Source: Eledone cirrhosa
Taxonomy: Eukaryota
NCBI GenBank assembly: GCA_964016885.1
Contig: CAXHJY010000967.1
Location: 124,001 to 188,000 of the forward strand
DNA: 64,000 nt
Direction of reading: 5' to 3'
Shown here: positions 15,201 to 56,956 of the stretch, in pieces
Position numbering within the stretch: the first letter of the stretch is position 1
Layout of the letters: the number at the start of each line of letters is the position of its first letter
The notes under the pieces: generated by a model
Told to the model about the DNA's origin: nothing
What the model saw: only the letters and a program-made list of their open reading frames with translations
Databases searched by the model: none
Translations under genes and position numbers: made by a program

Positions 15201-15366
15201 ATTTATTGACAGATAAGAAATTCTACATCTGTTTATTCCTCTCTAAGCACAGGCATGGCTGTGTGGTTAAGAAGTTCATTTTAGGACCACACTGGGAGGC
15301 ACCTTGAGCAAATGCCTTCTACTATAGCTCTGAACAGACCAATGCACACACACACATATATATATG

Positions 15367-15484
15367 TGAAAAATTCGGGACCCCCAACGGCTGAGCTCCT
15401 GCCGTTTCAACAGCTAGATCTGAACATTCAGATCTAGCTGTTGAAATAGCAGAAGCTCAGCCGTTGGGGGTCCCGAATTTTTCA
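15367..15484. repeat. Fold-back palindrome, 58-bp arms
   Basis: Arms 15367-15424 / 15427-15484 with 3 transition mismatches; the surrounding unit lies between CA/TA microsatellites. Confidence 0.95.
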
Positions 15485-16416
15485 TATTACCCACTTTACT
15501 ACCCCAAGTATCGAGTACTCTGTTTAATATAGAAATGGCTTTTACAGGACTAGAACTGTTTCATTCAAAAGAAATCATCATGATGTTTACAATCTACTAA
15601 TGTATTGAGTACCTTACTAACTGTGGTTACCTCCAATTGTACCCGACACACACACATACATATATAAATGTCTGTTTCAGTATTAACTGAATTTAGTTGT
15701 TCTTGTTTTACTAATGTTAATTGAAATATATCTCACTCCTTAAAGCCAACAAATAACCCTGTCTAACTTCCACTGCTATATGATTATAATAAGAAGTCTA
15801 TAATAAGATGTGCCTCACCCACATGTATCAACATTCACATGTTTTCACTTACTGCTTCAAAGATTTGAGATCTTGTAACATGTAATTTATATGAATTTGT
15901 TACTAACATTGCTGTCAGAAACATTGTAGTTTAGCACAGCCAGGCTACAAAATTACAAAAGTGACACCTCTGAAAGATTAAAACACTTTCATGTATAGAT
16001 TTCTTAAATTCTTTTTCCACTTAAACACTTGACTTTATAACTATCGCTACCATAAATGAAATGATAGTTAGTGTATACATTTATGTATGTATCCACTCAA
16101 GCATAATTAAAAATTTTGTACTTTATAGTTTGTCTATACTAATGTCATTGTGTATATATATGTATGTTTTAGTATTAGCACTTAACATCCTGTAATGGTT
16201 AAACAGAAAATATCTAACAGGTTTATCAATTCAAATGTTAATATTATCTTTACTACTGAACAGATCGTTGTGAAAATTTGCTGTATAAGAGTAAAGATTA
16301 CAATTGTTAATGTGATGCAGTTGTAGTGCTGTTTTATACTTTTCAAGAATGTCTTGCTAATGCAGTTTTATGTAGGGCAGGACATTAACTCAAATTAGTA
16401 ATTATTATATTACTTA

Positions 16417-22698: not shown

Positions 22699-24958
22699 TC
22701 ATCATCATCATCAACGTTTAACGTCCGTGTTCCACGCTTGCATGGGTTTGGACGGGGGTAGTCCACTTGAGGCAAGAGTGATTGTCTTGCTCGCATAGGA
22801 CTGTCTGGCAGGTTTTCTACAGTTGGATGCCCTTCCTAACACCAACCACATTTACAGTGTGGGTCTGGGAGGTTTTTACCGTGTTGCCTACACGGCCACA
22901 TTACAGCGTGGACTGTGTGTTTTTTTGTCGTGGCACCTACACGACCTCATTTGTTTTGGCCTGGATGGTGTGGCACCAACATAACTTTACATAGAACGGG
23001 GTGGTGTGGATGGGGTGGTGGTGGTGGTGGGACGGGGGGGGGGTATTTTGTTAGAGATGCCTACTGGCTGTAGTAGGTTTTACTATGTATTTAGGTAAGG
23101 CGGGTCTTCTCTGTTACTGAGTACCGCCAAAGGTCTCGGTCCAGTGACATTGTCTTGGAGAGGTGTAAGTGTGTGAGGTCGGAGTTTATCAGCTCGTCCC
23201 AGGTTTTTCTAGGTCTGCCTATTCCGTGGCTACCGTCTATCTTTATTGCCCTGCACTTTGTTATACAGCTATCGACTTTCATGCGCATCACGTGTCCATA
23301 CCAACGTAGCCTTCTCTCGAGTAAACAACATCTGATCCCTCTTATTTCTAATTTTTTCCTTAGTTCGTTTATGCTTTGCCGTTCACGTATATTACTGTTA
23401 CACATCCAGCGGAGCATGCAAGCTTCGTTCCTCTCTAGTCTGCGTATATCTTCTGCACACAATGCCCAGGTCTCACTGCCATGCAACATTGCTGTTCGTA
23501 TGCAGGCATCGTACAACCTGCCTTTCATTTTTAGGGAGAACCCTTTAGCAGCTAATAGTGGTATAAGCTCTCTGAACTTTTTCCAACCAGTTCTGACTCT
23601 AGCTACTGTACTTTCAGAGCACCCTCCCCCACTGCTGATTTTATCACCCAGGTAACGGAAGCTGTCCACTATTTCTATAGAACCCTCTGCGCAATTGAAA
23701 GAGCTAGTATTTTGTGGGCACTTGCTGCTACTTACTGCACCAGAGCACCGGCCACATGTAAAATCTATGTTCTTAGTTAGCTTACCTGTGATCCCACTAC
23801 ATCTTTTATGCACCCATACTTTGCATTTAGGACATAAAATGGAGTTTCTACCTACGCCTTTCCTACACACCGAGCACGACCATTTCCCAGAAGGGACCGC
23901 TGCCTTATTTTCTTTCCTACAAACTAGAACTTTAGTCTTAGCCAGGTTAATTTTAAGTCCTTTTGATTCTAGGCCGTGCTTCCATGTTTGGAATTTCTTC
24001 TTTAGCTCGGCCATTGATTCCGCTATGAGTGTCAGGTCGTCTGCGTATAGGAGTTCCCATGGGCAGCCGGTCTTGAACTCCTCTGTTATAGCCTGAAGGG
24101 CAATAATAAATAGTAGGGGGCTGAGAACAGAGCCCTGATGGACGCCAACTTTTACGCTAAACTCTTCACTATATTCGTTGTTAATTCTAACCTTGCTGAC
24201 TGTTTCTTTATACATGGCTTGTATAGCTCTCACAAGCCATTCGTCAACGCCTAGTTTTCTAAGAGCCCACCAGATAATGGAGCGGGGGACTCTGTCGAAG
24301 GCTTTCTCCAAGTCGACAAAAGCTAAGTAGAGGGGTTTACCTTTAGCTAGGTACTTCTCCTGTAGTTGTCGTACAATGAAAAGAGCGTCTGTGGTACTTT
24401 TGCCTGACACAAACCCGAACTGCATTTCATCTAGGTGAATTCTCTCTCTGATTAGTTGTGCTATTACTTTTTCCGTGACCTTCATGACCTGGTCGGTTAA
24501 ATTAATGCCTCTATAGTTACTCCTATCTAGGGTGTCTCCTTTACCCTTATAACAGTTAACGATGATGCTGCTATGCCAGTCCTTCGGAACAACCCCATTC
24601 TGTACGACTTGGTTAACTATGCGGGTGACCATGGTGTGTCCCACCGTGCCAGATGCCTTCAGCATCTCAGCAACTATTTCCGAAGGCCCAGCCGCCTTAC
24701 CCGTCTTCATATCCTTGATTGCCTTACTTATTATACTCCCCTCGACTAACACTGCTGGTCCCTCTATTGGGTCGATATGGGGGAGACTGTCTTTCTCCCA
24801 TTTATTCTCCTCATTTAGTAGCCTTTCATAGAGACACTTCCAAGCTACCTTCTTATCAGCGTCGGTGATGGCAAGTATGCCGTCATCGTTAAGTACACAC
24901 TTCTCCCCGACAATATCACGGTTTTCCTTGACGCATTGCCTAGCAATCCTGAAACACC
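22699..24958 (-). mobile_element. RTE-clade LINE, 5'-truncated, young
   Basis: Uninterrupted RT ORF, ~390 bp 3' UTR and (GAT)n tail (TCATCATCATC at 22699 on +); CpG-rich relative to flanks; no clear TSD found. Confidence 0.95.
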
Positions 24959-24968
24959 AATGAGACAA
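23091..24968 (-). CDS. RTE LINE ORF fragment: reverse transcriptase with internal C4HC3 PHD-like finger; endonuclease missing through 5' truncation
   Basis: RT motifs NYRGINL, QFGF, FVDLEKAFDRV, GVHQGSVLSPLLF, LLYADD, GLKINLAKTK, FRYLG; RTE C-terminus RRLRWYGHVMRM...GRPRKTW. The predicted start is not the true initiator. Confidence 0.9.
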   Translation of the reverse strand: MSHWCFRIARQCVKENRDIVGEKCVLNDDGILAITDADKKVAWKCLYERLLNEENKWEKDSLPHIDPIEGPAVLVEGSIISKAIKDMKTGKAAGPSEIVAEMLKASGTVGHTMVTRIVNQVVQNGVVPKDWHSSIIVNCYKGKGDTLDRSNYRGINLTDQVMKVTEKVIAQLIRERIHLDEMQFGFVSGKSTTDALFIVRQLQEKYLAKGKPLYLAFVDLEKAFDRVPRSIIWWALRKLGVDEWLVRAIQAMYKETVSKVRINNEYSEEFSVKVGVHQGSVLSPLLFIIALQAITEEFKTGCPWELLYADDLTLIAESMAELKKKFQTWKHGLESKGLKINLAKTKVLVCRKENKAAVPSGKWSCSVCRKGVGRNSILCPKCKVWVHKRCSGITGKLTKNIDFTCGRCSGAVSSSKCPQNTSSFNCAEGSIEIVDSFRYLGDKISSGGGCSESTVARVRTGWKKFRELIPLLAAKGFSLKMKGRLYDACIRTAMLHGSETWALCAEDIRRLERNEACMLRWMCNSNIRERQSINELRKKLEIRGIRCCLLERRLRWYGHVMRMKVDSCITKCRAIKIDGSHGIGRPRKTWDELINSDLTHLHLSKTMSLDRDLWRYSVTEKTRLT

Positions 24969-25198
24969 ATGTGATAGGAGAAATTCAAATAAATGATAAT
25001 GCTATCAATGATCACAATGTAGAAAAAGAAAATGCGTCACCAGCGTGATCAAGGATAAAATTTAGTGAACAATTTATAGACAGAACACTTTTCATGAAGA
25101 GTTGAGGGGAGGATAAATTAATTAATCAGATTCTTAAAACTTTGTTGCAGCTGGCAATAAACTTAACCTACTTATACCTGGTCCTCACCATATAAATA

Positions 25199-25995: not shown

Positions 25996-28154
25996 GCCAT
26001 GTGTTTCTATGATCTATACCTGTAATGAACACATTAACCAATGCTTTTAAATTACAACTCCTGATTCACTCACAATAGATGTAACATTGACAGTGTTGGA
26101 TTTAGGACAAATGAGGCCCTATGCTAGTTAAGTTGAGGTCCCTTACTTGGGGCCTGAAGGAGGTAAAAAATATTTTTGGCAAGAAGATGGGTCTCCTGAC
26201 CAACAAGGCCCTGTGGTTAAGTACACCTAAGCACAATGGTAATTCCAGCACTGAACATTGGGTAATAGGATTACAGCTGACTGATAGAGATTTGTGCATG
26301 TTTCATACACATGGAAAATGTGCATATATAAATTCATGAGACTACATATCATAGGTGCATTTGTTTTGTAGCAGAATTGAATTCTGCTTGTCATTTCAAT
26401 AGAAGACGTTATTAACATATATTCGTTTACAACGCTGATATTCATATAGACCGAGGAGTGATGAGATCAAGCCTGCCCTACATTTCCAATCATTTGTCAG
26501 TATATGTATGTTAGCACATGATGCATATTTTGAGCCCAGAGTAAGGTTCAATAGATAAGTCATATGAGGTTTTTGGTGTTTTATCTTCAAGTATATACAG
26601 TAAATAGAACACATACTATAAGATTTATTATCTTAAATAAGTGATATTAGTTACTGGATATCTAGACATACTTTTCAGTTTATAAATTTTAGATGAGATA
26701 CTCTATAGTGCCAATTAAATGTATAACATTAAAAAAAACATAATTATAAAGATAATTAACAAATTTGGGTTATGTCACGCATTCATTTTTGGTTTACCTT
26801 TAATGATAATATCGATTTATAAAAAACTTTTTGGGGGGGAGGGGGTTCTTTTATGATCTTAATGCAGAAATGAGAAGCATTGAGCTAATGACTAAAGTAT
26901 TTATTACAACTTACTACCATCTAATAATCCCACTGATATTATAATAATTATGATATCCTTGCCTAAACATAAAGTGTTTTTTACTTTAGTAATGTTGCTT
27001 GAAGTATCCTCAGTGTACTATTTCAATTATTTTAAGTACTGAAAGCAAAGACAACCTCTGTGTATTATTTGAACTCTGAACAGCAAAACAGTAGGTTAGA
27101 TATTGCAAACCAAGTTTAGCTTCCATAGGTTTTGGCTATCTCCAATAATAATTTATATATTAAGCAAAAGGTAGCACATGAATAGGTGATGTTAAATAAC
27201 CCGTTGGATAATTGCGGCACCATCAAAAACTGTGTGTGCAGTGTAGCTAAGGCAAACTGAATGTAAATAATAATAACAATAACAACATCAACATTGTTCT
27301 AATGTGCATAAAATATAACAAATCAGCTTTAATTTTTCATTTGCTTACATCAAGTGCTTTAGCAATTTAAAAAGGAAAATTAGAAACAAGTCACAAAATT
27401 AATTAAACCCTTCCTAAATGAAGTTAATATTTGAGAATTTGAAGAAAAGAAATGAAAACACCAAAAATGCCAATACCAAATCACCACTTGACATACACTG
27501 AATGCTTAATAAATGCTTAATCAACAATATTTTTAGCGAAATAATAAGAACTACAAAAATAGAATTGTTCAACAGCCGCTGAAAAAAGCTATATGATCTA
27601 GAACTTTCTAAGAAATAATCACAGAAAGATGAAGACAAGAAAGAAAAATGATGAAAATCAGAAATTTCCAATAGAAATAAATACACCCTGGCTTGTGCTC
27701 ATGCTGGAATAAATATAATGAAGCCTGTGTATTTGTGTGTTTGCTAAGGCATATTGAACATGGGACATTTGGCTGGTTACTGGACTTGCAACATTGAGAG
27801 CTAAGTTCAAGCCAATCTATTGCTGCTATGTGAGTGGTACAGACCTTGGGCAAGACTATCACAGCTCCCTCGCCGATGGAAGTTAGTAAGACTGCAGTCA
27901 TAATCCCATTTCACTGGTAAAGAAAAAATAGAGACAGCATCTTTCCATCATTCTAAACATACTCAGCACTTTAATGTAACCTCAGAAATTGCATTACATG
28001 AAGCTGTGCAGTATTTCAGCCAATCAGAAAAAAAGAAAATTTCATCTGATAGGCATCATGTGATGTAGTGAAAACAGGGACAAAGCTGTGTTTACATTTA
28101 TAATTATATAGTGAGAAACAATTGCAATACTGAATTCTCAAATGAAGTCGGATT

Positions 28155-32488
<4,334 letters not shown>

Positions 32489-33885
32489 TTTTAAAATGGA
32501 TTGAGATTACTTTTTCAATACTTTCTGAGGCTAATGAAATGTACCAAAAACCATACATTAATATACTGAGTCAACTTTTCACTTAATACTTAATATTCTG
32601 ATGCAAGTTAATAAATAGAGGGAACATTAATTATTCCGCCAAATTTTGATCTGCCAACAAAAAGGTAGAATGGCAATATTGGTATGATTAATTGAGATTA
32701 ATTTGAAAAGTATGTTGTTGTTTTTCTTTCCTATAATGGAAACATTCTACATTTCAAGTTATTTTACACTTGGTTATAAATATGAGATTGGTAAAACATT
32801 AAATCTTTTTCACAATTAATATATAATTAATTTATTAAAGTATAATGATCTTAAACAAACTCGGAAACACAAAACTTGCCCTGCAATTGGGTGGAATTTA
32901 ACTGGAAGGCAGAAACTGGAAACACCTTGAAATAAATATGAACAAGAGAAAAGGTAAGAAAAAGGGAAGGTGGCACTTACTTGTTAGAATTCAATGATGT
33001 GAAGTGTCTGGAGAGGTGAAATTGATGCCAGTAAGGGGCAGTAGGTGGCAAAAGGTGAGAGAAACAAGACAAAAAGGAAAGAGAAATGAAGGGAGAGAGA
33101 GAGAGAAAGAGTGAGAAAGGTGGGGTGGAGAGAGAGAAAAGTATAAAAAACCCAGCAAGATGCAGCAATTGACAAACCTAGTATACAGTTGACAGCATTT
33201 TACCGAAAACTATTAGTAAGTAACCTCAAAGTTTAAAAACCATGGCTACTTAATTCTAAAAACTAAATATTAATCACAATGCACCTATATATGTGTGTGT
33301 ATATATATATACAGGATGCTATTTTTCCATATTTAATGAATTTAATATATAAAGATACAACAGTGACCACATACAAGCTCTCCAATATTTCAATTCTATT
33401 AATGAAATAAGGAAATACAAAGGAATATCAGCATATCTACTACTAAAGTAATAGCAAGAAATTATTTTTATAAATTTATGAAGTCAACACCAAGTTGCAG
33501 ATAAATAGTTTATAAAACAATATTATGAAATTATATTCAAAAACAAACTGACTCCACAAACCCAAACATAATCTTGTTTTAAGAAAACATTTCATGAAAT
33601 GAAATTCCTAGAGTTCCTTTAGATAAGTTGAAGATGATATAAAATATTTTCTTAATGCTTACAAAATATACTAGAAAATTTGCTAAGATATTTTTTATTA
33701 ATATGTCTATTAAATTGAAAACAGCATATTTATTGATACAAATTTGTGGAATATTATTGTTTGTTTTTTGATGAATTTTATAACAAATTTTCATTAAATC
33801 TGTTTCAAAGTTGAATTTTTTTTGTGAAGGCTTTATGTTGGTTGACTATTTCGATGACAAGAGCTTTGTAATGACAGCTACACCA

Positions 33886-33955
33886 CACTAATGAAGAACT
33901 GCACTACACTGTACTAGTTACACTAATGAAGAACTGCACTACACTGTACTAGTTA
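33886..33955. repeat. Perfect tandem duplication of a 35-bp unit
   Basis: 2 x CACTAATGAAGAACTGCACTACACTGTACTAGTTA; a similar 26-bp duplication lies at 14505-14556. Confidence 0.9.
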
Positions 33956-35126
33956 AACTTGCTTTTGTTTTAAAAGTTTACAGATTAAATTATTTGTTTT
34001 AATAATATGGAGAACAGCCTAAGCAAGAATAGTGATAATTATAGAAGGTAATTTTTTACATATCTTTAAAAATGAATATGAACTTTTCAAAACATCCTTT
34101 TTCTTAAATTAAAAAAACGACCAAAGGACTAAACCAATTTATTTCTTTGTTAGACTTTTCAATATAACTTCAAGATACAGGGTCTGACTAGTGAGGATTC
34201 TTCAAAGAAAAGAATAGATTTGGTTCTAAATGTAAAGTATATTAAATAATTAAATACAGAGAGAATACCTTACATTAAAATTGACACAATATCCAATACA
34301 TATAACTGAGATGCGATAAGCAGCAATATTTTCTCTAGTGGCAACCTGGTGCATTTGGTAAAGACCCAGGTTTCATTGCCCGACAAGTTGAAGATAGCAG
34401 GCTGTTGTTGTACCAGCCACTTTTTCATAGATTTGTTGTTGAAACCTATATGGGTGTAGACTTCTGGTGCTTTTGGTCCCCTAACTACCTCTCTACACAC
34501 TGTTATTGGGGGAAGTAGAAGGGGGAGATTTGGCAATCAACAGGAGTAAGCCCCAAGAGTTGGAACATTGCCCTCGCTATCCTCTGGGGTAACACTATTC
34601 TGTTCGCTGAAACCATGAAGCAGCATGCACCTCAGGTTCTGGGTGTTGGAGAAGGTTTTCCCACATTGTCCAGAGGAAAATAATGGAAATATATTGCACT
34701 GAAGTGTAAATCTTCATACATAAATTCTGTTCCCTTATATAAAAAAATAAATCAAAATTATGAGCTTTTGATGTTAAAGTATATAAAAAAAAACAACTGT
34801 GATAATGATAACAAGGGTTTAATCTTAATGACATCATTAACAACCTTTATTATCATTATTATTATTATTAAATGTGCTCTCTTATATACACTTTTAATCA
34901 TAGTTATTATCCAATCTAATTGGCTAAAAGAATTATGTAAAATAATTAAGTTATTAGCCATGAAAGGAATGAACTGGAAGAATTTTGAAGAATTGCAATT
35001 AATAGTTTTATTATATTCTGAGAACATAATTTTTAATATATTGGATAACAAAAGATTAAATGTTGAAAATTGATTTTATAATCTACACAGGATAATTTTA
35101 TGTATTTCAGGTTAGCAATTATTATT

Positions 35127-39665: not shown

Positions 39666-39750
39666 ATCAAAATATATTTTATTATATATATTTCGGAGGT
39701 ACTGTGCTTTTTTTCAGTACGTCCTCATCAGATAAAATATATAAATTGAT
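39666..39750 (-). ncRNA. Minimal type I hammerhead ribozyme fold (Penelope-like element type)
   Basis: Minus strand: ATATATTTTAT-CTGATGA-GGACGTACTG(aaaaaaagca)CAGTACCTCC-GAAA-TATATA-TA^ATAAAATATAT; 11-bp helix I, helix II with one mismatch, palindromic helix III, intact core. Confidence 0.8.
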
Positions 39751-39984
39751 GTACTGAAAAAACAGGACAGTACCTCCGACATATATCATCATCATCATCA
39801 TTTCATTTTACGTCCGCTTTTTCCCTGCTTGCAAGGGTGGGGCGGGAACTGATTGTGGCTTGATTTCTACAGCTTGATGCCCTTCCTAACACCAACCTCA
39901 TTTACAGTGAGTGCTGGGTGTTTTTTGCCATGGCACCTGCACGATCACTTTGCAGTAGAATGATATGGACCCCAGTCCCTATCA

Positions 39985-40495: not shown

Positions 40496-40734
40496 AATCC
40501 TAGTCATTTAGAACATTTAGGGTACATAATTCTTGTTAGTGTCATAGGTAACATGTGGAGAGTCAGGAGTTAAAAAGATGTTCTGCTTAAAAGAACACAA
40601 TTACAGGCAGCACTGGTTGAAAGTGTGTGCTGCCTGTAATTGTGTTCTTTTAAGCAGAACATCTTTTTAACTCCTGACTCTCCACATGTTACCTATGACA
40701 CTAACAACAATTATGTACCCTAATGACTAGGATT
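40496..40734. repeat. Fold-back palindrome, ~110-bp arms
   Basis: Arms 40496-40613 / 40627-40734, near-perfect apart from one ~10-bp indel and one substitution; 13-nt loop. Confidence 0.95.
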
Positions 40735-40760: not shown

Positions 40761-40813
40761 TGCTCCGATGATTCCAAACTTCCCTCTGGAAGAAACAATT
40801 GTCAGCAAATAAA
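40761..40813 (+). ncRNA. Minimal hammerhead ribozyme fold with one core change (CCGATGA)
   Basis: TGCT-CCGATGA-TTCCA(aacttccctc)TGGAA-GAAA-CAATTG-TC^AGCA followed by AATAAA. Confidence 0.65.
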
Positions 40814-41443: not shown

Positions 41444-41683
41444 CATTGAGTGTTCTGTGATTGCCTCAAAACAAATCAAATTGTACATGCTATATATATA
41501 TATAGATAGATATCTTTCTTTATTTGCCACAGGGGCGTACAAAAATGGGACATTACAAGACGTGATGGCGTCTTGTAATGTCACATTTTTGTATACCCCT
41601 GTGGCAAATAAAGAAAGATATCTATCTATATATATAGCAAGTACAATTTGATTTGTTTTGAAGCAATCACAGAACACTCAATG
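41444..41683. repeat. Fold-back palindrome, ~117-bp arms
   Basis: Arms 41444-41562 / 41569-41683; 6-nt loop TGATGG; a few mismatches. Confidence 0.95.
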
Positions 41684-53864: not shown

Positions 53865-54290
53865 CCTAAGTACCTCACTAGGAAGATGGAATTAGTGGTG
53901 CCTTTGACGAGCTAAAAACCAAACTGCATCTCACTAAGATTAATTTTGTCCCTAATCAATTTTGCTATCACTTTCTGTAACCTTCAGAACCCGATCCAAT
54001 AATTTGATGCCATTGTAATTACCTCTCTCTAGTGCATCTCCTTTTCCATTATAACAGTTTACAATTTATGTTACTACCTGGTTACTATTCAAGTGACTAG
54101 CCTGTGTCATGCTTCACTTGATAGTTTCACAATCTCAGCAACTGCCTTCTCTTCCTTCATATATCCTTAATCACTTTATTTATCATACTGTTGCCAACTT
54201 TAATAACTGGTCCCTCAGTTGAGTCTACTTGCGGTAGACCCTCATTTTCCATACATTCTTCTCATTCAGCCAACTCTTGTAATAAATCTT
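53865..54290 (-). mobile_element. Degenerate RTE LINE internal fragment
   Basis: Minus strand reads IVNCYNGKGDALERGNYNGIKLLDRVLKVTE...SEMQFGF, homologous to the 23 kb ORF. Confidence 0.8.
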
Positions 54291-54599
54291 TCCAGTATCT
54301 GTAAGGCTAAGTGAACTGCTGTTATTCCTTGCACTATTCTCCTTATGATGTATTGGTTCTCTCTTGTACACTTGTAAAATATATATATGGGATAACAAGT
54401 TATCATTTTAGGTAATCCAGTTAGAGGTTGCCAGTACTCTGTATGGATAGTTTTAACGTACGGCGTTGTTTGACTCAACAAGAGGTTTCCTTAGTTAGGT
54501 AGCGAGTTTGCGAGAATTCCCATGCAGGTCATTCTTGGAGTAATAGTAGTGAAAGAGTGAAGAATAACATGGTCGGCTGTACAAAAAGGGTTTTATTTA

Positions 54600-54714
54600 C
54601 AGTATTAACAATTGTTTCATTGATCAGGTGAGTCTAAAGGCCGCTGATCACTCGAAATTGTGTCACTCGACCTTAAATACAGTGTGCGTTTCTGATCAAA
54701 TCATCAGAATACTG
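54600..54714 (-). ncRNA. Hammerhead ribozyme fold with long loop II
   Basis: Minus strand: CAGTATT-CTGATGA-T-TTGATCAG(64 nt)CTGATCAA-T-GAAA-CAATTG-TT^AATACTG followed by AATAAA. Confidence 0.7.
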
Positions 54715-54971
54715 GAGTACTGGAGGGTATAACACATGGCATTGGAGAAATCAAGTGAATGAAAACAATAACATCAATAATAAAAGATAATAAACAATAA
54801 TAAAAGTATAAAGAAGTTAAAATGAAAATGATATGTATAAATATATATAGATATGTTTCTTTATTAACCACAGGGGCACGAAAGAAGGGGACAAATACAA
54901 AGGGAGAAGTTTACATACAATAAAAACGTGTAAAATACTATGACAAATGCAATTTAAAAGATAGATAGATA

Positions 54972-56956
54972 TGTAGTGGTTGTCTCCCTTGTTGTGACTC
55001 ACAACCCCAATAGATTAACAACATCTAGACGGGAAGTAGAACCCTTTCTGTAACTTCCGGCAGAGCCCTATAAAACGAATAGCCTTCGGCTCTCTCCCTC
55101 TCATTTGCCCTTCCGGCGCCTGGCCTTCGCCAGGCATCTCGCGTTTGCCTGGCAATCAAAACGGTAACTACTAACTTTGCTTCATTCTTTCGTTTATTTC
55201 ATTGACATGTCAACTATACTGTTAGATTGTTAATTAAATATTATACACACAAACCATGTCTCCTTGTTACATTCATACAACCCAGTATCTTCGCTATATT
55301 GGTAACCCTGACGTGATACCAACACGCAGCCGTTCATCGCCATAAGTGGTCACCCCGAAAAAAGAAAAAAATAGCATAATCTGGTGTTGTGTGAGTAGCA
55401 TTACGAATACACAGCAAATTTATTGACAAACTATGAAAATACTCAGTAAAAGAAACGAACACACCACGCACATGTGAAATTTTCGAACAGACAGACTTTT
55501 TCTCTCACGCATCAACTAACTGTCGCATTTCACGATATATATATATGTTTCTCGTTTCTTACAACGAACACTTTCAAAACAAAAAAGAAAAAAAAAAAAG
55601 AAATTTGATATTCTTTAAAAAACATTTCAACAGGAACATTTATTTTCGATGAACCATTGCCTTTTTTTTCATCATTTTCTTCATCGTTCAAGTTTTTTTT
55701 TTTTTTTTTTTTTTTTCAAAAGTTCACACCAATAATTATGCTGAGTGAAGCCTTTCTTTTTCATCATTGTCACTTTCACACTTGCACTATCATTTTCTCG
55801 CGCGTTAGAAATATTATTTTTTCAACCTAGCTTAACCTTGTATTGGCACATGTAGGCAGCACAAATTCTCAACTCACGGAGATATCTCGACTCACAGAGA
55901 TAGCCGCACGCCAGAGATAACGTTTCTCGCCAAGGATTCTTCAGCCTTAAGCTATATTCTCCTATTTGCCAGTTTAAAAATTTACCACGTAAATTTGCCG
56001 TTGAAAACTGCGCATTTATTCAGAATGCTTATTTCTTTGGTCGCTGGCCTCTTGACCCTTCCAGGTCAACGCATTCTCAACATCGACCATCAACTTCGGC
56101 TGTTATTTCTAGCGCTTTGCGCAACTCATTTTTTTCCGAAAAAAATTTTTTTTACTGTGAATTTAAACACCGAATACGCCCACTCAGCGAGACAACAACA
56201 TCAACACAGCTTCACCAACAACCAAGACCAGCAGAACAAGCCAGAGAATTTATTTTTGCAGCACTCTTCCTGTGAGAAAATCCATTCGGAGGTTGGAAAT
56301 TTCACGATATACCACAGAACAGAAACCACCTGCATTCATTCTCTGGAACACACTTTCTTTCCTGCTGTCATGTGATTGCACACCTGTGAACTATATTTTG
56401 TACATTTGAACGTTGAGCTCTTCTCTTACTTTATTACATTGTATCTTTGGGTGATGGATAGATAGATGTCCAGTCGTTCTCTGGCCAAGAGCGGTTGGCT
56501 ACCTTGATATCTATCATTGATTTTTGCAAACATTCTTTTGTCGTAATTTTCATGCCTGTTACAACATTCTCGCCAACTTGCTACAGATTTCATTCGATTT
56601 TTATATTCTAAAATTCTGGCGGGAGGTTATGTGGCAGTTGTCTCCCTTGTTGTGACTCACAACCCCAATAGATTAACAACATCTAGACGGGAAGTAGAAC
56701 CCTTTCTGTAACTTCCGGCAGAGCCCTATAAAACGAATAGCCTTCGGCTCTCTCCCTCTCATTTGCCCTTCCGGCGCCTGGCCTTCGCCAGGCGTCTCGC
56801 GTTTGCCTGGCAATCAAAACGGTAACTACTAACTTTGCTTCATTCTTTCGTTTATTTCATTGACATGTCAACTATACTGTTAAATTGTTGATTAAATATT
56901 ATACACACAAACCATGTCTCCGTGTTACATTCATACAACCCAGTATCTTCACTATA
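54972..56956 (+). mobile_element. Complete non-autonomous LTR retroelement (~1985 bp)
   Basis: Direct 327-bp LTRs (54972-55298, 56630-56956; about 8 differences by eye); GATA TSD (54968-54971, 56957-56960); PBS TGGTAACCCTGACGTGAT (55300-55317, tRNA-Trp-like); purine tract GGCGGGAGG before the 3' LTR; no pol. Confidence 0.92.

What the first reader, a model, noticed from the sequence alone, without database searches (positions are those of the whole stretch)
54490..54770. Third hammerhead with U-U closing helix II, 64-nt loop and GUU site
Seen: minus strand 54714-54600 has a 7-bp helix I, an intact CUGAUGA/GAAA core, an 8-bp helix II preceded by a U.U pair in place of the usual G10.1-C11.1, a 64-nt loop containing two TCGAGTGA repeats, the same CAATTG helix III as at 40.8 kb, and a downstream AATAAA. 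The decayed motif at 15559-15581 has the same U..U closure. Inference: a lineage-specific hammerhead variant that standard descriptors could miss.
Basis: partly seen in the sequence, partly recalled or inferred. Interest (0 to 1): 0.72.

Follow-up and report, generated by a model that had tools for sequence, protein, structure and literature searches.

The report
Triple-variant hammerhead in abundant animal retroelement
A real hammerhead (self-cutting RNA) fold sits near the end of a very abundant animal repeat that is likely a Penelope-type jumping gene; most other copies carry a C at a core position that is normally U and likely share this copy's U·U mismatch and long loop, so it is a family-wide variant that library searches miss, though each core change has a precedent and cutting is untested.

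Summary
Laying four public runs on the stretch shows a very high-copy repeat. Two corrections follow. First, the 'intact' CUGAUGA core is this copy's own change: 78-98% of the depth in each run has C at core position 4 (CCGAUGA, U4C), the same core as the unrelated hammerhead at 40.8 kb. Second, U·U at 10.1/11.1 and the GUU site look like family majority states: no listed difference falls there (inferred; 118 rows were hidden). Ends in (TA)n, inverted joins, the palindromic helix III and AATAAA fit the 3' end of a Penelope-like element, but no RT or GIY-YIG gene could be linked. Natural U·U (phage PaP3) and U4C (a viroid) are each published; GUU is common in Penelope hammerheads (15 of 56 published examples). 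C4 plus U·U plus a 64-nt loop in one high-copy animal family I did not find in print, but one key catalogue was unreadable. Most likely a slow, dimer-dependent ribozyme; a dead vestige copied en masse is the main rival. New variant of a known kind; interest 0.45.

The parts
54388..54835 (-). Whole insertion, about 450 bp: 5'-truncated 3' end of a high-copy retroelement (edges approximate), between short (TA)n runs at 54380-54387 and 54842-54849
   Evidence: TA runs; repeat depth from 54439 to 54818 (which did not cover positions below 54420); decayed LINE fragment beyond the lower edge, another repeat beyond the upper edge
54715..54835 (-). U-rich leader upstream of helix I (53% T); this copy appears to carry an 8-nt tandem duplication next to helix I that other copies lack
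   Evidence: loose ends at 54717 and an 8-letter gap; 'U-rich' upstream is part of the published Penelope hammerhead consensus
54708..54714 (-). Helix I, 5' strand (7 nt)
54701..54707 (-). Core C3-A9: CUGAUGA here, CCGAUGA (U4C) in most other copies
   Evidence: row 54706: 7781 of 7933 depth (X2), 91.6 of 109.8 (X1), 76 of 97 reads (X5), 8916 of 9364 (X4)
54700..54700 (-). U at 10.1 (or the extra base after A9 in the published Penelope register)
   Evidence: no listed difference, and run X1 has no A>C place at all
54692..54699 (-). Helix II, 5' strand (8 nt)
54628..54691 (-). Loop II, 64 nt, with two TCGAGTGA octamers (54670-54663, 54655-54648); weak internal hairpin; most sequence differences between copies fall here but none of the listed ones inside the octamers
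54620..54627 (-). Helix II, 3' strand (8 nt)
54619..54619 (-). U at 11.1
   Evidence: no listed difference in the deepest bin of the motif; runs X2 and X4 have no A>T place at all
54607..54618 (-). GAAA, palindromic minimal helix III (CAAUUG) and the GUU site; predicted cut after 54607
   Evidence: two copies of 54615-54608 form an 8-bp duplex, -6.6 kcal/mol
54600..54606 (-). Helix I, 3' strand (7 nt)
54592..54597 (-). AATAAA directly after helix I
   Evidence: same position in the 40.8 kb motif
54547..54550 (-). Place where many other copies end and run into (TA)n, about 59 nt past the predicted cut
   Evidence: loose ends in X2 (43 contigs), X4 (45), X5 (300 and 172 reads)
54388..54546 (-). 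Extension past the first family end, to about 219 nt beyond the predicted cut; repeated in many copies, variable between subfamilies; a 61-codon frame from 54570 with 5 stops has no database support
40761..40807 (+). Second hammerhead of a different family: CCGAUGA core, U-A at 10.1/11.1, 10-nt loop, CAAUUG, GUC, then AATAAA and (TA)n 47 nt past the cut; next to a 207-bp inverted repeat
15559..15581 (-). Decayed hammerhead-like motif with U..U closure, no helix I or III found; near a 124-bp inverted repeat

Best explanation
This is a type I hammerhead fold with a minimal palindromic helix III near the end of a 5'-truncated copy of a very high-copy repeat that is likely a Penelope-like retroelement; most other copies have C at core position 4 and likely share the U·U closure and long loop II, and the ribozyme is predicted to cut slowly after GUU only when two tandem copies pair through CAAUUG. 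Shown: the anatomy, the high copy depth, C4 as the majority letter, family ends in (TA)n, inverted joins. Inferred: U·U and GUU as majority states; Penelope identity; that the insertion arose by reverse transcription begun 60-220 nt downstream of the ribozyme at an AT-rich nick and stopped early; that U4 in this copy is a CpG-type decay of the family's C4; that selection has kept the fold. Untested: cleavage, dimer dependence, help from the element's protein. This solitary copy has no partner and is probably silent.
For: Anatomy and shuffles. Family data: summed contig depth 218,725 at 54610-54628 in X2 against 6-10 for contigs that look single-copy; row 54706 gives C4 at 0.98, 0.83, 0.78, 0.95 in X2, X1, X5, X4; C4 lies in a CpG. 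No row at 54700, 54619 or 54607 among the 40 shown; the 16 shown rows I computed, chosen to include the weakest-looking ones, all reach 0.48 or more in some run, so hidden rows are probably below that; X1 lists no A>C change anywhere (so G10.1 is under 4% there) and X2 and X4 list no A>T change (so A11.1, A10.1 and GUA are under 4%). Listed differences: 1 in the 51 stem-and-core positions against 8 in the 64 loop positions (Fisher p 0.04) and 24 in 160 tail positions. An element with no BLAST similarity (40.8 kb) shares C4, U10.1, CAAUUG, AATAAA and a (TA)n end. Penelope traits in print: minimal palindromic helix III, 7-8 bp helix II, extra base after A9, dimer cleavage at low rate (PMC4209133); inverted truncated copies and (TA)n targets (PMC8557442); reverse transcription starting downstream of the hammerhead, AT-rich targets, protein-assisted cleavage (PMC11167929). 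At least 8 of the 15 joints shown are between opposite strands. U·U and U4C are each compatible with activity (PMC3088659).
Against: No RT or GIY-YIG sequence near the motif (0 Pfam families in six frames of 53900-54960) and no genome to look for full-length elements; the candidate ORF start found no real relative. 118 of 158 difference rows were hidden, including 5 A>G and 1 A>C places in X2, so a G-C minority is not excluded; only sequences at least 80% alike were counted. No covariation could be measured. Depth falls about 50-fold from the 3' half (218,725) to the first core half (4,054), so most related sequence lacks a whole ribozyme or diverges there. The p 0.04 contrast mixes this copy's private changes with subfamily differences. 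U4C lowers activity considerably in vitro, and two weakening changes together have no tested precedent that I found. Cleavage is not needed for insertion in vitro in the one element studied. The distance between the two family ends (about 160 nt) is longer than the published 30-40 nt tail.
Confidence: 0.58

Rival explanations
1. Dead vestige amplified by founder effect: a non-autonomous master copy whose hammerhead was already crippled (C4, U·U, a long insertion in loop II) was copied thousands of times by Penelope enzymes, which do not need the cut. The variant is family-wide by descent, not by selection.
For: Insertion does not need cleavage in vitro (PMC11167929); Naiad elements proliferate without canonical hammerheads (PMC8557442); no coding sequence found in the repeat; the first core half has about 50-fold less depth than the 3' half; two weakening core changes at once.
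Against: Stems and core show fewer differences than loop and tail; the unrelated 40.8 kb element has the same C4, U10.1 and CAAUUG; a subfamily with a diverged loop (loose end at 54624, 19 contigs in X4) still aligns across 11.1 and GAAA; both substitutions are among the better tolerated ones.
Confidence: 0.27
2. A retrozyme-like non-autonomous tandem repeat (170-400 nt unit with a type I hammerhead) rather than the end of an autonomous Penelope element; this copy is a stray monomer.
For: Length about 450 bp, no ORF, very high copy depth; animal retrozymes are described as non-autonomous derivatives of Penelope ends (10.64898/2026.07.22.740005; PMC7229834).
Against: No tandem copy in the window; depth declines steeply toward the 5' side and many copies end in (TA)n instead of running into another unit; described retrozymes mostly have canonical helix sizes.
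Confidence: 0.09
3. U·U is private decay: the family has G10.1-C11.1 and this copy changed both bases (11.1 would be a CpG change).
For: G10.1-C11.1 is highly conserved in Penelope hammerheads; 118 difference rows were hidden; this copy differs from the majority at six listed places.
Against: A majority change at 54619 would lie in the deepest bin of the motif and should have been listed like 54706; X1 has no A>C place; the one CpG that could be read (position 4) is retained in 78-98% of depth, so a C at 11.1 would also be visible.
Confidence: 0.06

Closest known systems
Minimal type I hammerheads in the pseudo-LTRs of metazoan Penelope-like elements (Cervera and de la Pena 2014, PMC4209133)
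   Same: Type I topology, U-rich upstream, helix II of 7-8 bp, an extra base after A9, palindromic minimal helix III, GUU site (15 of 56 published rows), mostly solitary truncated copies.
   Different: None of the 56 rows of Fig. S3 has a CCGA core or U·U at 10.1/11.1; their loops II are at most 9 nt against 64 here; helix I is 7 bp here. One row has an extra A before GAAA (the PDF text does not keep which), so an extra base on that side is not without precedent. Link to an RT gene not shown here.
Phage PaP3 hammerhead with a U10.1-U11.1 mismatch (Perreault et al. 2011, PMC3088659, section 8 and Fig. S6)
   Same: Same mismatch at the base of helix II; listed among active natural core variants; U-U is said there to be the best tolerated mispair.
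   Different: Phage intergenic ribozyme with a stable helix III; not a retroelement, not dimer-type, no C4 reported with it.
Viroid hammerhead with U4C (cited as ref. 30 in PMC3088659)
   Same: Same core substitution; reduced in vitro activity but enough for function in vivo according to that paper.
   Different: A variant in a plant RNA pathogen, not the majority state of a high-copy genomic family; no U·U reported with it.
PAc, Poseidon-clade element of Anolis (Frangieh et al. 2024, PMC11167929)
   Same: Hammerhead near the pLTR-ORF junction, copies ending downstream of it at two positions, AT-rich targets.
   Different: Canonical core; ORF starts in stem II; the two ends are 30-40 nt apart against about 160 nt here; protein and activity shown there, not here.
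Naiad elements (Craig et al. 2021, PMC8557442)
   Same: (TA)n targets; no hammerhead found by canonical descriptors; some have only core or half-core matches.
   Different: The term GAAACAATTG has 0 hits in that paper's supplement, and the shown end of the Octopus Naiad_Obim consensus has another arrangement; no evidence that this family is a Naiad.

Membership tests
Hammerhead ribozyme, type I | Three-way junction with C3-A9 and G12-A15.1 boxes, U16.1 and H17, open helix I | tested here: met
   0 of 60 shuffles
Hammerhead ribozyme, type I | U at core position 4 | tested here: not met
   met in this copy, but C in 78-98% of depth from other copies; a published tolerated variant
Hammerhead ribozyme, type I | Paired 10.1-11.1 (usually G-C) | tested here: not met
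   U·U here and probably in most copies; published tolerated variant
Hammerhead ribozyme, type I | Match to an Rfam hammerhead model | tested here: not met
   no hammerhead among 86 matches at E<=1 in the window
Hammerhead ribozyme, type I | Covariation in helices I and II | tested here: inconclusive
   no individual copies available; only fewer differences in stems than in the loop
Hammerhead ribozyme, type I | Site-specific self-cleavage | not testable with these tools
   needs an in vitro assay or end-mapping RNA data
Penelope-like element | ORF with Penelope-type RT and GIY-YIG endonuclease | tested here: inconclusive
   absent from this truncated copy; no genome held; candidate ORF start unsupported
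Penelope-like element | Minimal palindromic-helix-III hammerhead near the 3' end | tested here: met
   against PMC4209133
Penelope-like element | 5'-truncated copies, inverted or partial-tandem joins | tested here: met
   depth gradient and opposite-strand joints (8 of 15 shown)
Penelope-like element | Insertion at AT-rich or (TA)n sites | tested here: met
   loose ends at 54547-54550; TA runs at both edges
Penelope-like element | 30-40 nt optional tail between two ends | tested here: inconclusive
   two ends about 160 nt apart; the outer end lay outside the stretch laid
Non-LTR retrozyme | Head-to-tail tandem units each with a type I hammerhead | tested here: not met
   single copy in the window; arrays elsewhere in the genome not testable
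Naiad clade | N-terminal GIY-YIG, CxC motif, RT | not testable with these tools
   no protein linked; supplement term search gave no match to this end

The most novel reading that the evidence does not exclude
A lineage of Penelope-like elements in this animal has fixed a working hammerhead with C4, an unpaired U·U (or U-A) base of helix II and, in this family, a 64-nt loop II that carries its own conserved octamer repeats, possibly promoter or protein-binding sites; the ribozyme is tuned down so that it fires only in a dimer loaded with the element's protein. [quoted passage not shown]
Probability: 0.25. Interest if true: 0.68.

Novelty: new variant of a known kind. Interest (0 to 1): 0.45.

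Why it matters
Hammerhead censuses in animal genomes use descriptors that demand CUGANGA, a paired 10.1-11.1 and a short loop II (PMC3088659 rejects core changes and mispairs next to the core; PMC8557442 spaced the two boxes 7-17 nt). A high-copy family that breaks all three would be missed entirely, which bears on the open question of whether Penelope-like elements need their ribozyme and whether clades said to lack one really do. It also offers a natural double core variant for a simple test of how far a protein-assisted dimer can tolerate core changes. If the ribozyme is dead, the family is still a clear example that cleavage is dispensable for amplification. Either way the class of element and each single core change are known.

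Tried and rejected
Rfam scan: no hammerhead model matched. No whole genome. Candidate ORF start 54570-54388, suggested by a recalled resemblance to Penelope N-termini: 0 hits among 12 candidates; 1 hit among 1.84 billion proteins that is a repetitive sequence with no local alignment; left unsupported. Pfam on six frames of 53900-54960: nothing. Naiad identity: not supported. Host lineage: a search with the LINE ORF at 23091-25001 gave no organism label of use; the host is an animal by repeat content, and my impression of an octopus is recalled, not tested. No RNA holder listed, which is no evidence on expression. A conserved structure in loop II: the predicted hairpin weakens with the majority letters (-14.8 to -12.2 kcal/mol), so not supported. 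A link between the hammerhead and the neighbouring LTR-type element: rejected, the ribozyme lies outside both repeats and the element has its own 4-bp target duplication. The 15.5 kb motif as a copy of this family: rejected. Literature searches: hammerhead + Penelope, G10.1 + C11.1 (22), U4C (27), octopus (30), stem III/dimers/variants (34), Penelope + octopus genome (47), U10.1/U11.1 (70), CCGAUGA (71): none of the listings or passages read describes this combination; Lunse et al. (doi 10.1080/15476286.2016.1251002), which catalogues Penelope hammerhead variants, is not held and may contain it.

Full report
Observation. TCGAGTGA occurs twice in the window, both in the loop. A descriptor of this stringency finds 1 motif in the window and none in 60 dinucleotide shuffles. 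The fold is not exceptional in energy (z -1.38), and the lowest-energy monomer pairs part of the core with the helix III region, as expected for a ribozyme that is not active as a monomer. None of the 86 Rfam matches at E up to 1 in the window is a hammerhead.

Surroundings. The window is AT-rich, repeat-dense animal-type DNA with LINE remnants. No tool named the host; my impression of an octopus is recalled. The motif lies in a stretch of about 450 bp (about 54388-54835) bounded by short (TA)n runs, with a U-rich leader (53% T). Upstream lie another very abundant repeat (54857-54960) and an LTR-type element with two 329-bp repeats 97.6% alike; the ribozyme is outside it. Two more hammerheads are in the window: 40761-40807 (+; CCGAUGA, U-A at 10.1/11.1, CAAUUG, GUC, AATAAA, (TA)n 47 nt past the cut) and 39742-39672 (-; CUGAUGA, G-C). 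The 15.5 kb motif has U..U and is absent from 60 shuffles but lacks helices I and III by my scan. None of the three shows BLAST similarity to the focal element.

Other copies. No genome is held, so I used the one read-laying run: 4 of the 7 listed runs (three contig sets from one study, two of them one sample, and one raw RAD-seq run from another study) on 54420-54960 at 80% likeness. Summed contig depth in X2 is 218,725 at 54610-54628, 33,000-35,000 in the loop, 18,927 at 54686-54704 and 4,054 at 54705-54723, against 6-10 for contigs that look single-copy. The tool warns that this is no copy number; it still indicates thousands to tens of thousands of related sequences, most of them short at the 5' side or diverged there. 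Many copies end at 54547-54550 and run into (TA)n (43 and 45 contigs, 300 and 172 reads), others continue past 54442, and 8 of the 15 joints shown join opposite strands.

The core. At 54706 (position 4) the other letter is C on the ribozyme strand in 7781 of 7933 depth (X2), 91.6 of 109.8 (X1), 76 of 97 reads (X5) and 8916 of 9364 (X4): shares 0.98, 0.83, 0.78, 0.95. So the family core is CCGAUGA, as at 40.8 kb, and the canonical-looking U in this copy is most simply a CpG-type change (the C precedes G; inference).

The U·U. The table showed 40 of 158 difference rows. None is at 54700, 54619 or 54607. The 16 shown rows whose shares I computed, including the weakest-looking ones, reach 0.48 or more in at least one run, which suggests that hidden rows are below about a half. 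The per-run tallies add direct limits: X1 has no A>C place, so G10.1 is under 4% there; X2 and X4 have no A>T place, so A at 10.1, 11.1 or 17 is under 4%. X2 has 1 A>C and 5 A>G places that I could not see, so a G-C or GUC minority remains possible. I conclude that U·U and GUU are majority states (about 0.9), by inference. Listed differences number 1 in 51 stem-and-core positions, 8 in 64 loop positions (Fisher p 0.04) and 24 in 160 tail positions; this mixes private and subfamily changes and is only suggestive of constraint. None falls in the two octamers. A subfamily with a diverged but recognisable loop leaves a loose end at 54624 (19 contigs, X4), so the long loop is older than one subfamily.

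What element. The anatomy matches the hammerheads of Penelope-like elements: type I, long helix II, extra base after A9, palindromic minimal helix III, low activity and only as dimers or with an extended helix III (PMC4209133). Two copies of 54615-54608 form an 8-bp duplex. Truncated and inverted copies and (TA)n targets are described for these elements (PMC8557442). In the one element studied in vitro, reverse transcription starts 111-118 nt into the ORF, downstream of the ribozyme, at AT-rich nicks; the ribozyme cuts only with the protein and is not needed for insertion (PMC11167929). Family ends 59 and about 219 nt past the predicted cut fit this in kind, though their spacing exceeds the published 30-40 nt tail. 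The defining gene could not be linked: six frames of 53900-54960 give no Pfam family, and a 61-codon frame from 54570 with five stops found no real relative. Membership therefore rests on non-coding features.

Mechanism. Most likely (0.58): a tandem element is transcribed through two copies of this end; the CAAUUG palindromes pair to build helix III between copies; the RNA is cut after GUU, slowly and probably with help from the element's protein; new copies arise by reverse transcription begun downstream of the ribozyme and usually stop early, leaving solitary pieces like this one, which has no partner and is probably silent. Shown are the anatomy, depth, C4 majority, (TA)n ends and inverted joins; inferred are U·U majority, Penelope identity and selection; cleavage is untested. 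The main rival (0.27) is a dead ribozyme fixed by descent from one master copy; against it stand the spared stems and the sharing of C4, U10.1 and CAAUUG with the dissimilar 40.8 kb element, which is however a single copy that I did not check against its own family. A retrozyme-like tandem unit (0.09) and private decay from G-C (0.06) are less likely.

Comparison with what is known. A natural U10.1-U11.1 hammerhead is published and listed as active (phage PaP3; PMC3088659), and U4C is known from a viroid, with reduced activity in vitro but function in vivo. Earlier notes of this scan report U4C repeatedly in phages (unchecked). Among the 56 representative Penelope hammerheads of Fig. S3 of PMC4209133 I counted 15 with GUU, none with a CCGA core, none with U·U, and no loop II above 9 nt; one has an extra A before GAAA. 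Eight literature searches showed nothing on this combination, but the main catalogue of Penelope hammerhead variants (Lunse et al.) could not be read and its supplements may hold it. What I saw of each paper: PMC4209133, parts 1-2 of 4 of the text and parts 1-2 of 3 of the supplement; PMC3088659, passages, section 8 and the text of Fig. S6; PMC8557442, passages and term searches in the supplement; PMC11167929, PMC6765202, PMC7229834 and PMC13282606, passages (supplement of the last listed, not read); 10.64898/2026.07.22.740005, part 1 of 5; all others, search listings only.

Verdict. Real, family-wide and more deviant than first reported (C4 plus U·U plus a 64-nt loop II), invisible to Rfam, but a variant of a known kind whose single core changes are precedented, whose parent gene is not linked and whose activity is unknown. 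Novelty: new variant of a known kind. Interest 0.45; 0.68 if it proves an active, protein-gated variant typical of a whole lineage (probability about 0.25).

Noticed in passing
window 54970-56956 (+): Non-coding LTR-type element: two 329-bp repeats 97.6% alike, about 1.3 kb interior with no ORF of note, a primer-site-like stretch after the first repeat (tRNA-Trp by recall, not tested), a purine-rich stretch before the second, and an apparent 4-bp target duplication.
   Followed up: partly
window 39672-39742 (-): Hammerhead with canonical CUGAUGA and G-C, palindromic UAUAUA helix III and an AUA site, inside an inverted repeat 39686-39786; not matched by Rfam.
   Followed up: partly
window 40517-40723 and 15364-15487: Long near-perfect inverted repeats (207 and 124 bp) right next to the 40.8 kb and 15.5 kb hammerhead-like motifs, as expected from inverted truncated Penelope copies.
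   Followed up: partly
window 54745-54760 (-), other copies: Loose ends and a joint suggest that other copies carry a TATA-like box about 40-45 nt upstream of helix I that this copy lacks; a second TATA-like stretch lies in loop II at 54679-54672. Either could place a transcription start at or inside the ribozyme.
   Followed up: no
window 54570-54590 (-): A pyrimidine run ending in CAG followed by an ATG in good context lies 25-40 nt after the ribozyme, like a splice acceptor before a start codon; the frame closes after 13 codons in most copies.
   Followed up: partly
window 54857-54960: A second repeat with summed depth up to 819,506 in X2, related to 41469-41552.
   Followed up: no
window 23091-25001 (-): Open frame of 636 codons with a reverse transcriptase domain and an embedded PHD-like finger, about 50-56% identical to many LINE proteins; decayed relatives at 53.9-54.3 kb.
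   Followed up: partly
window 28100-32500: About 4.4 kb array of mixed TA/CA microsatellite with higher-order units of 39-47 nt.
   Followed up: no
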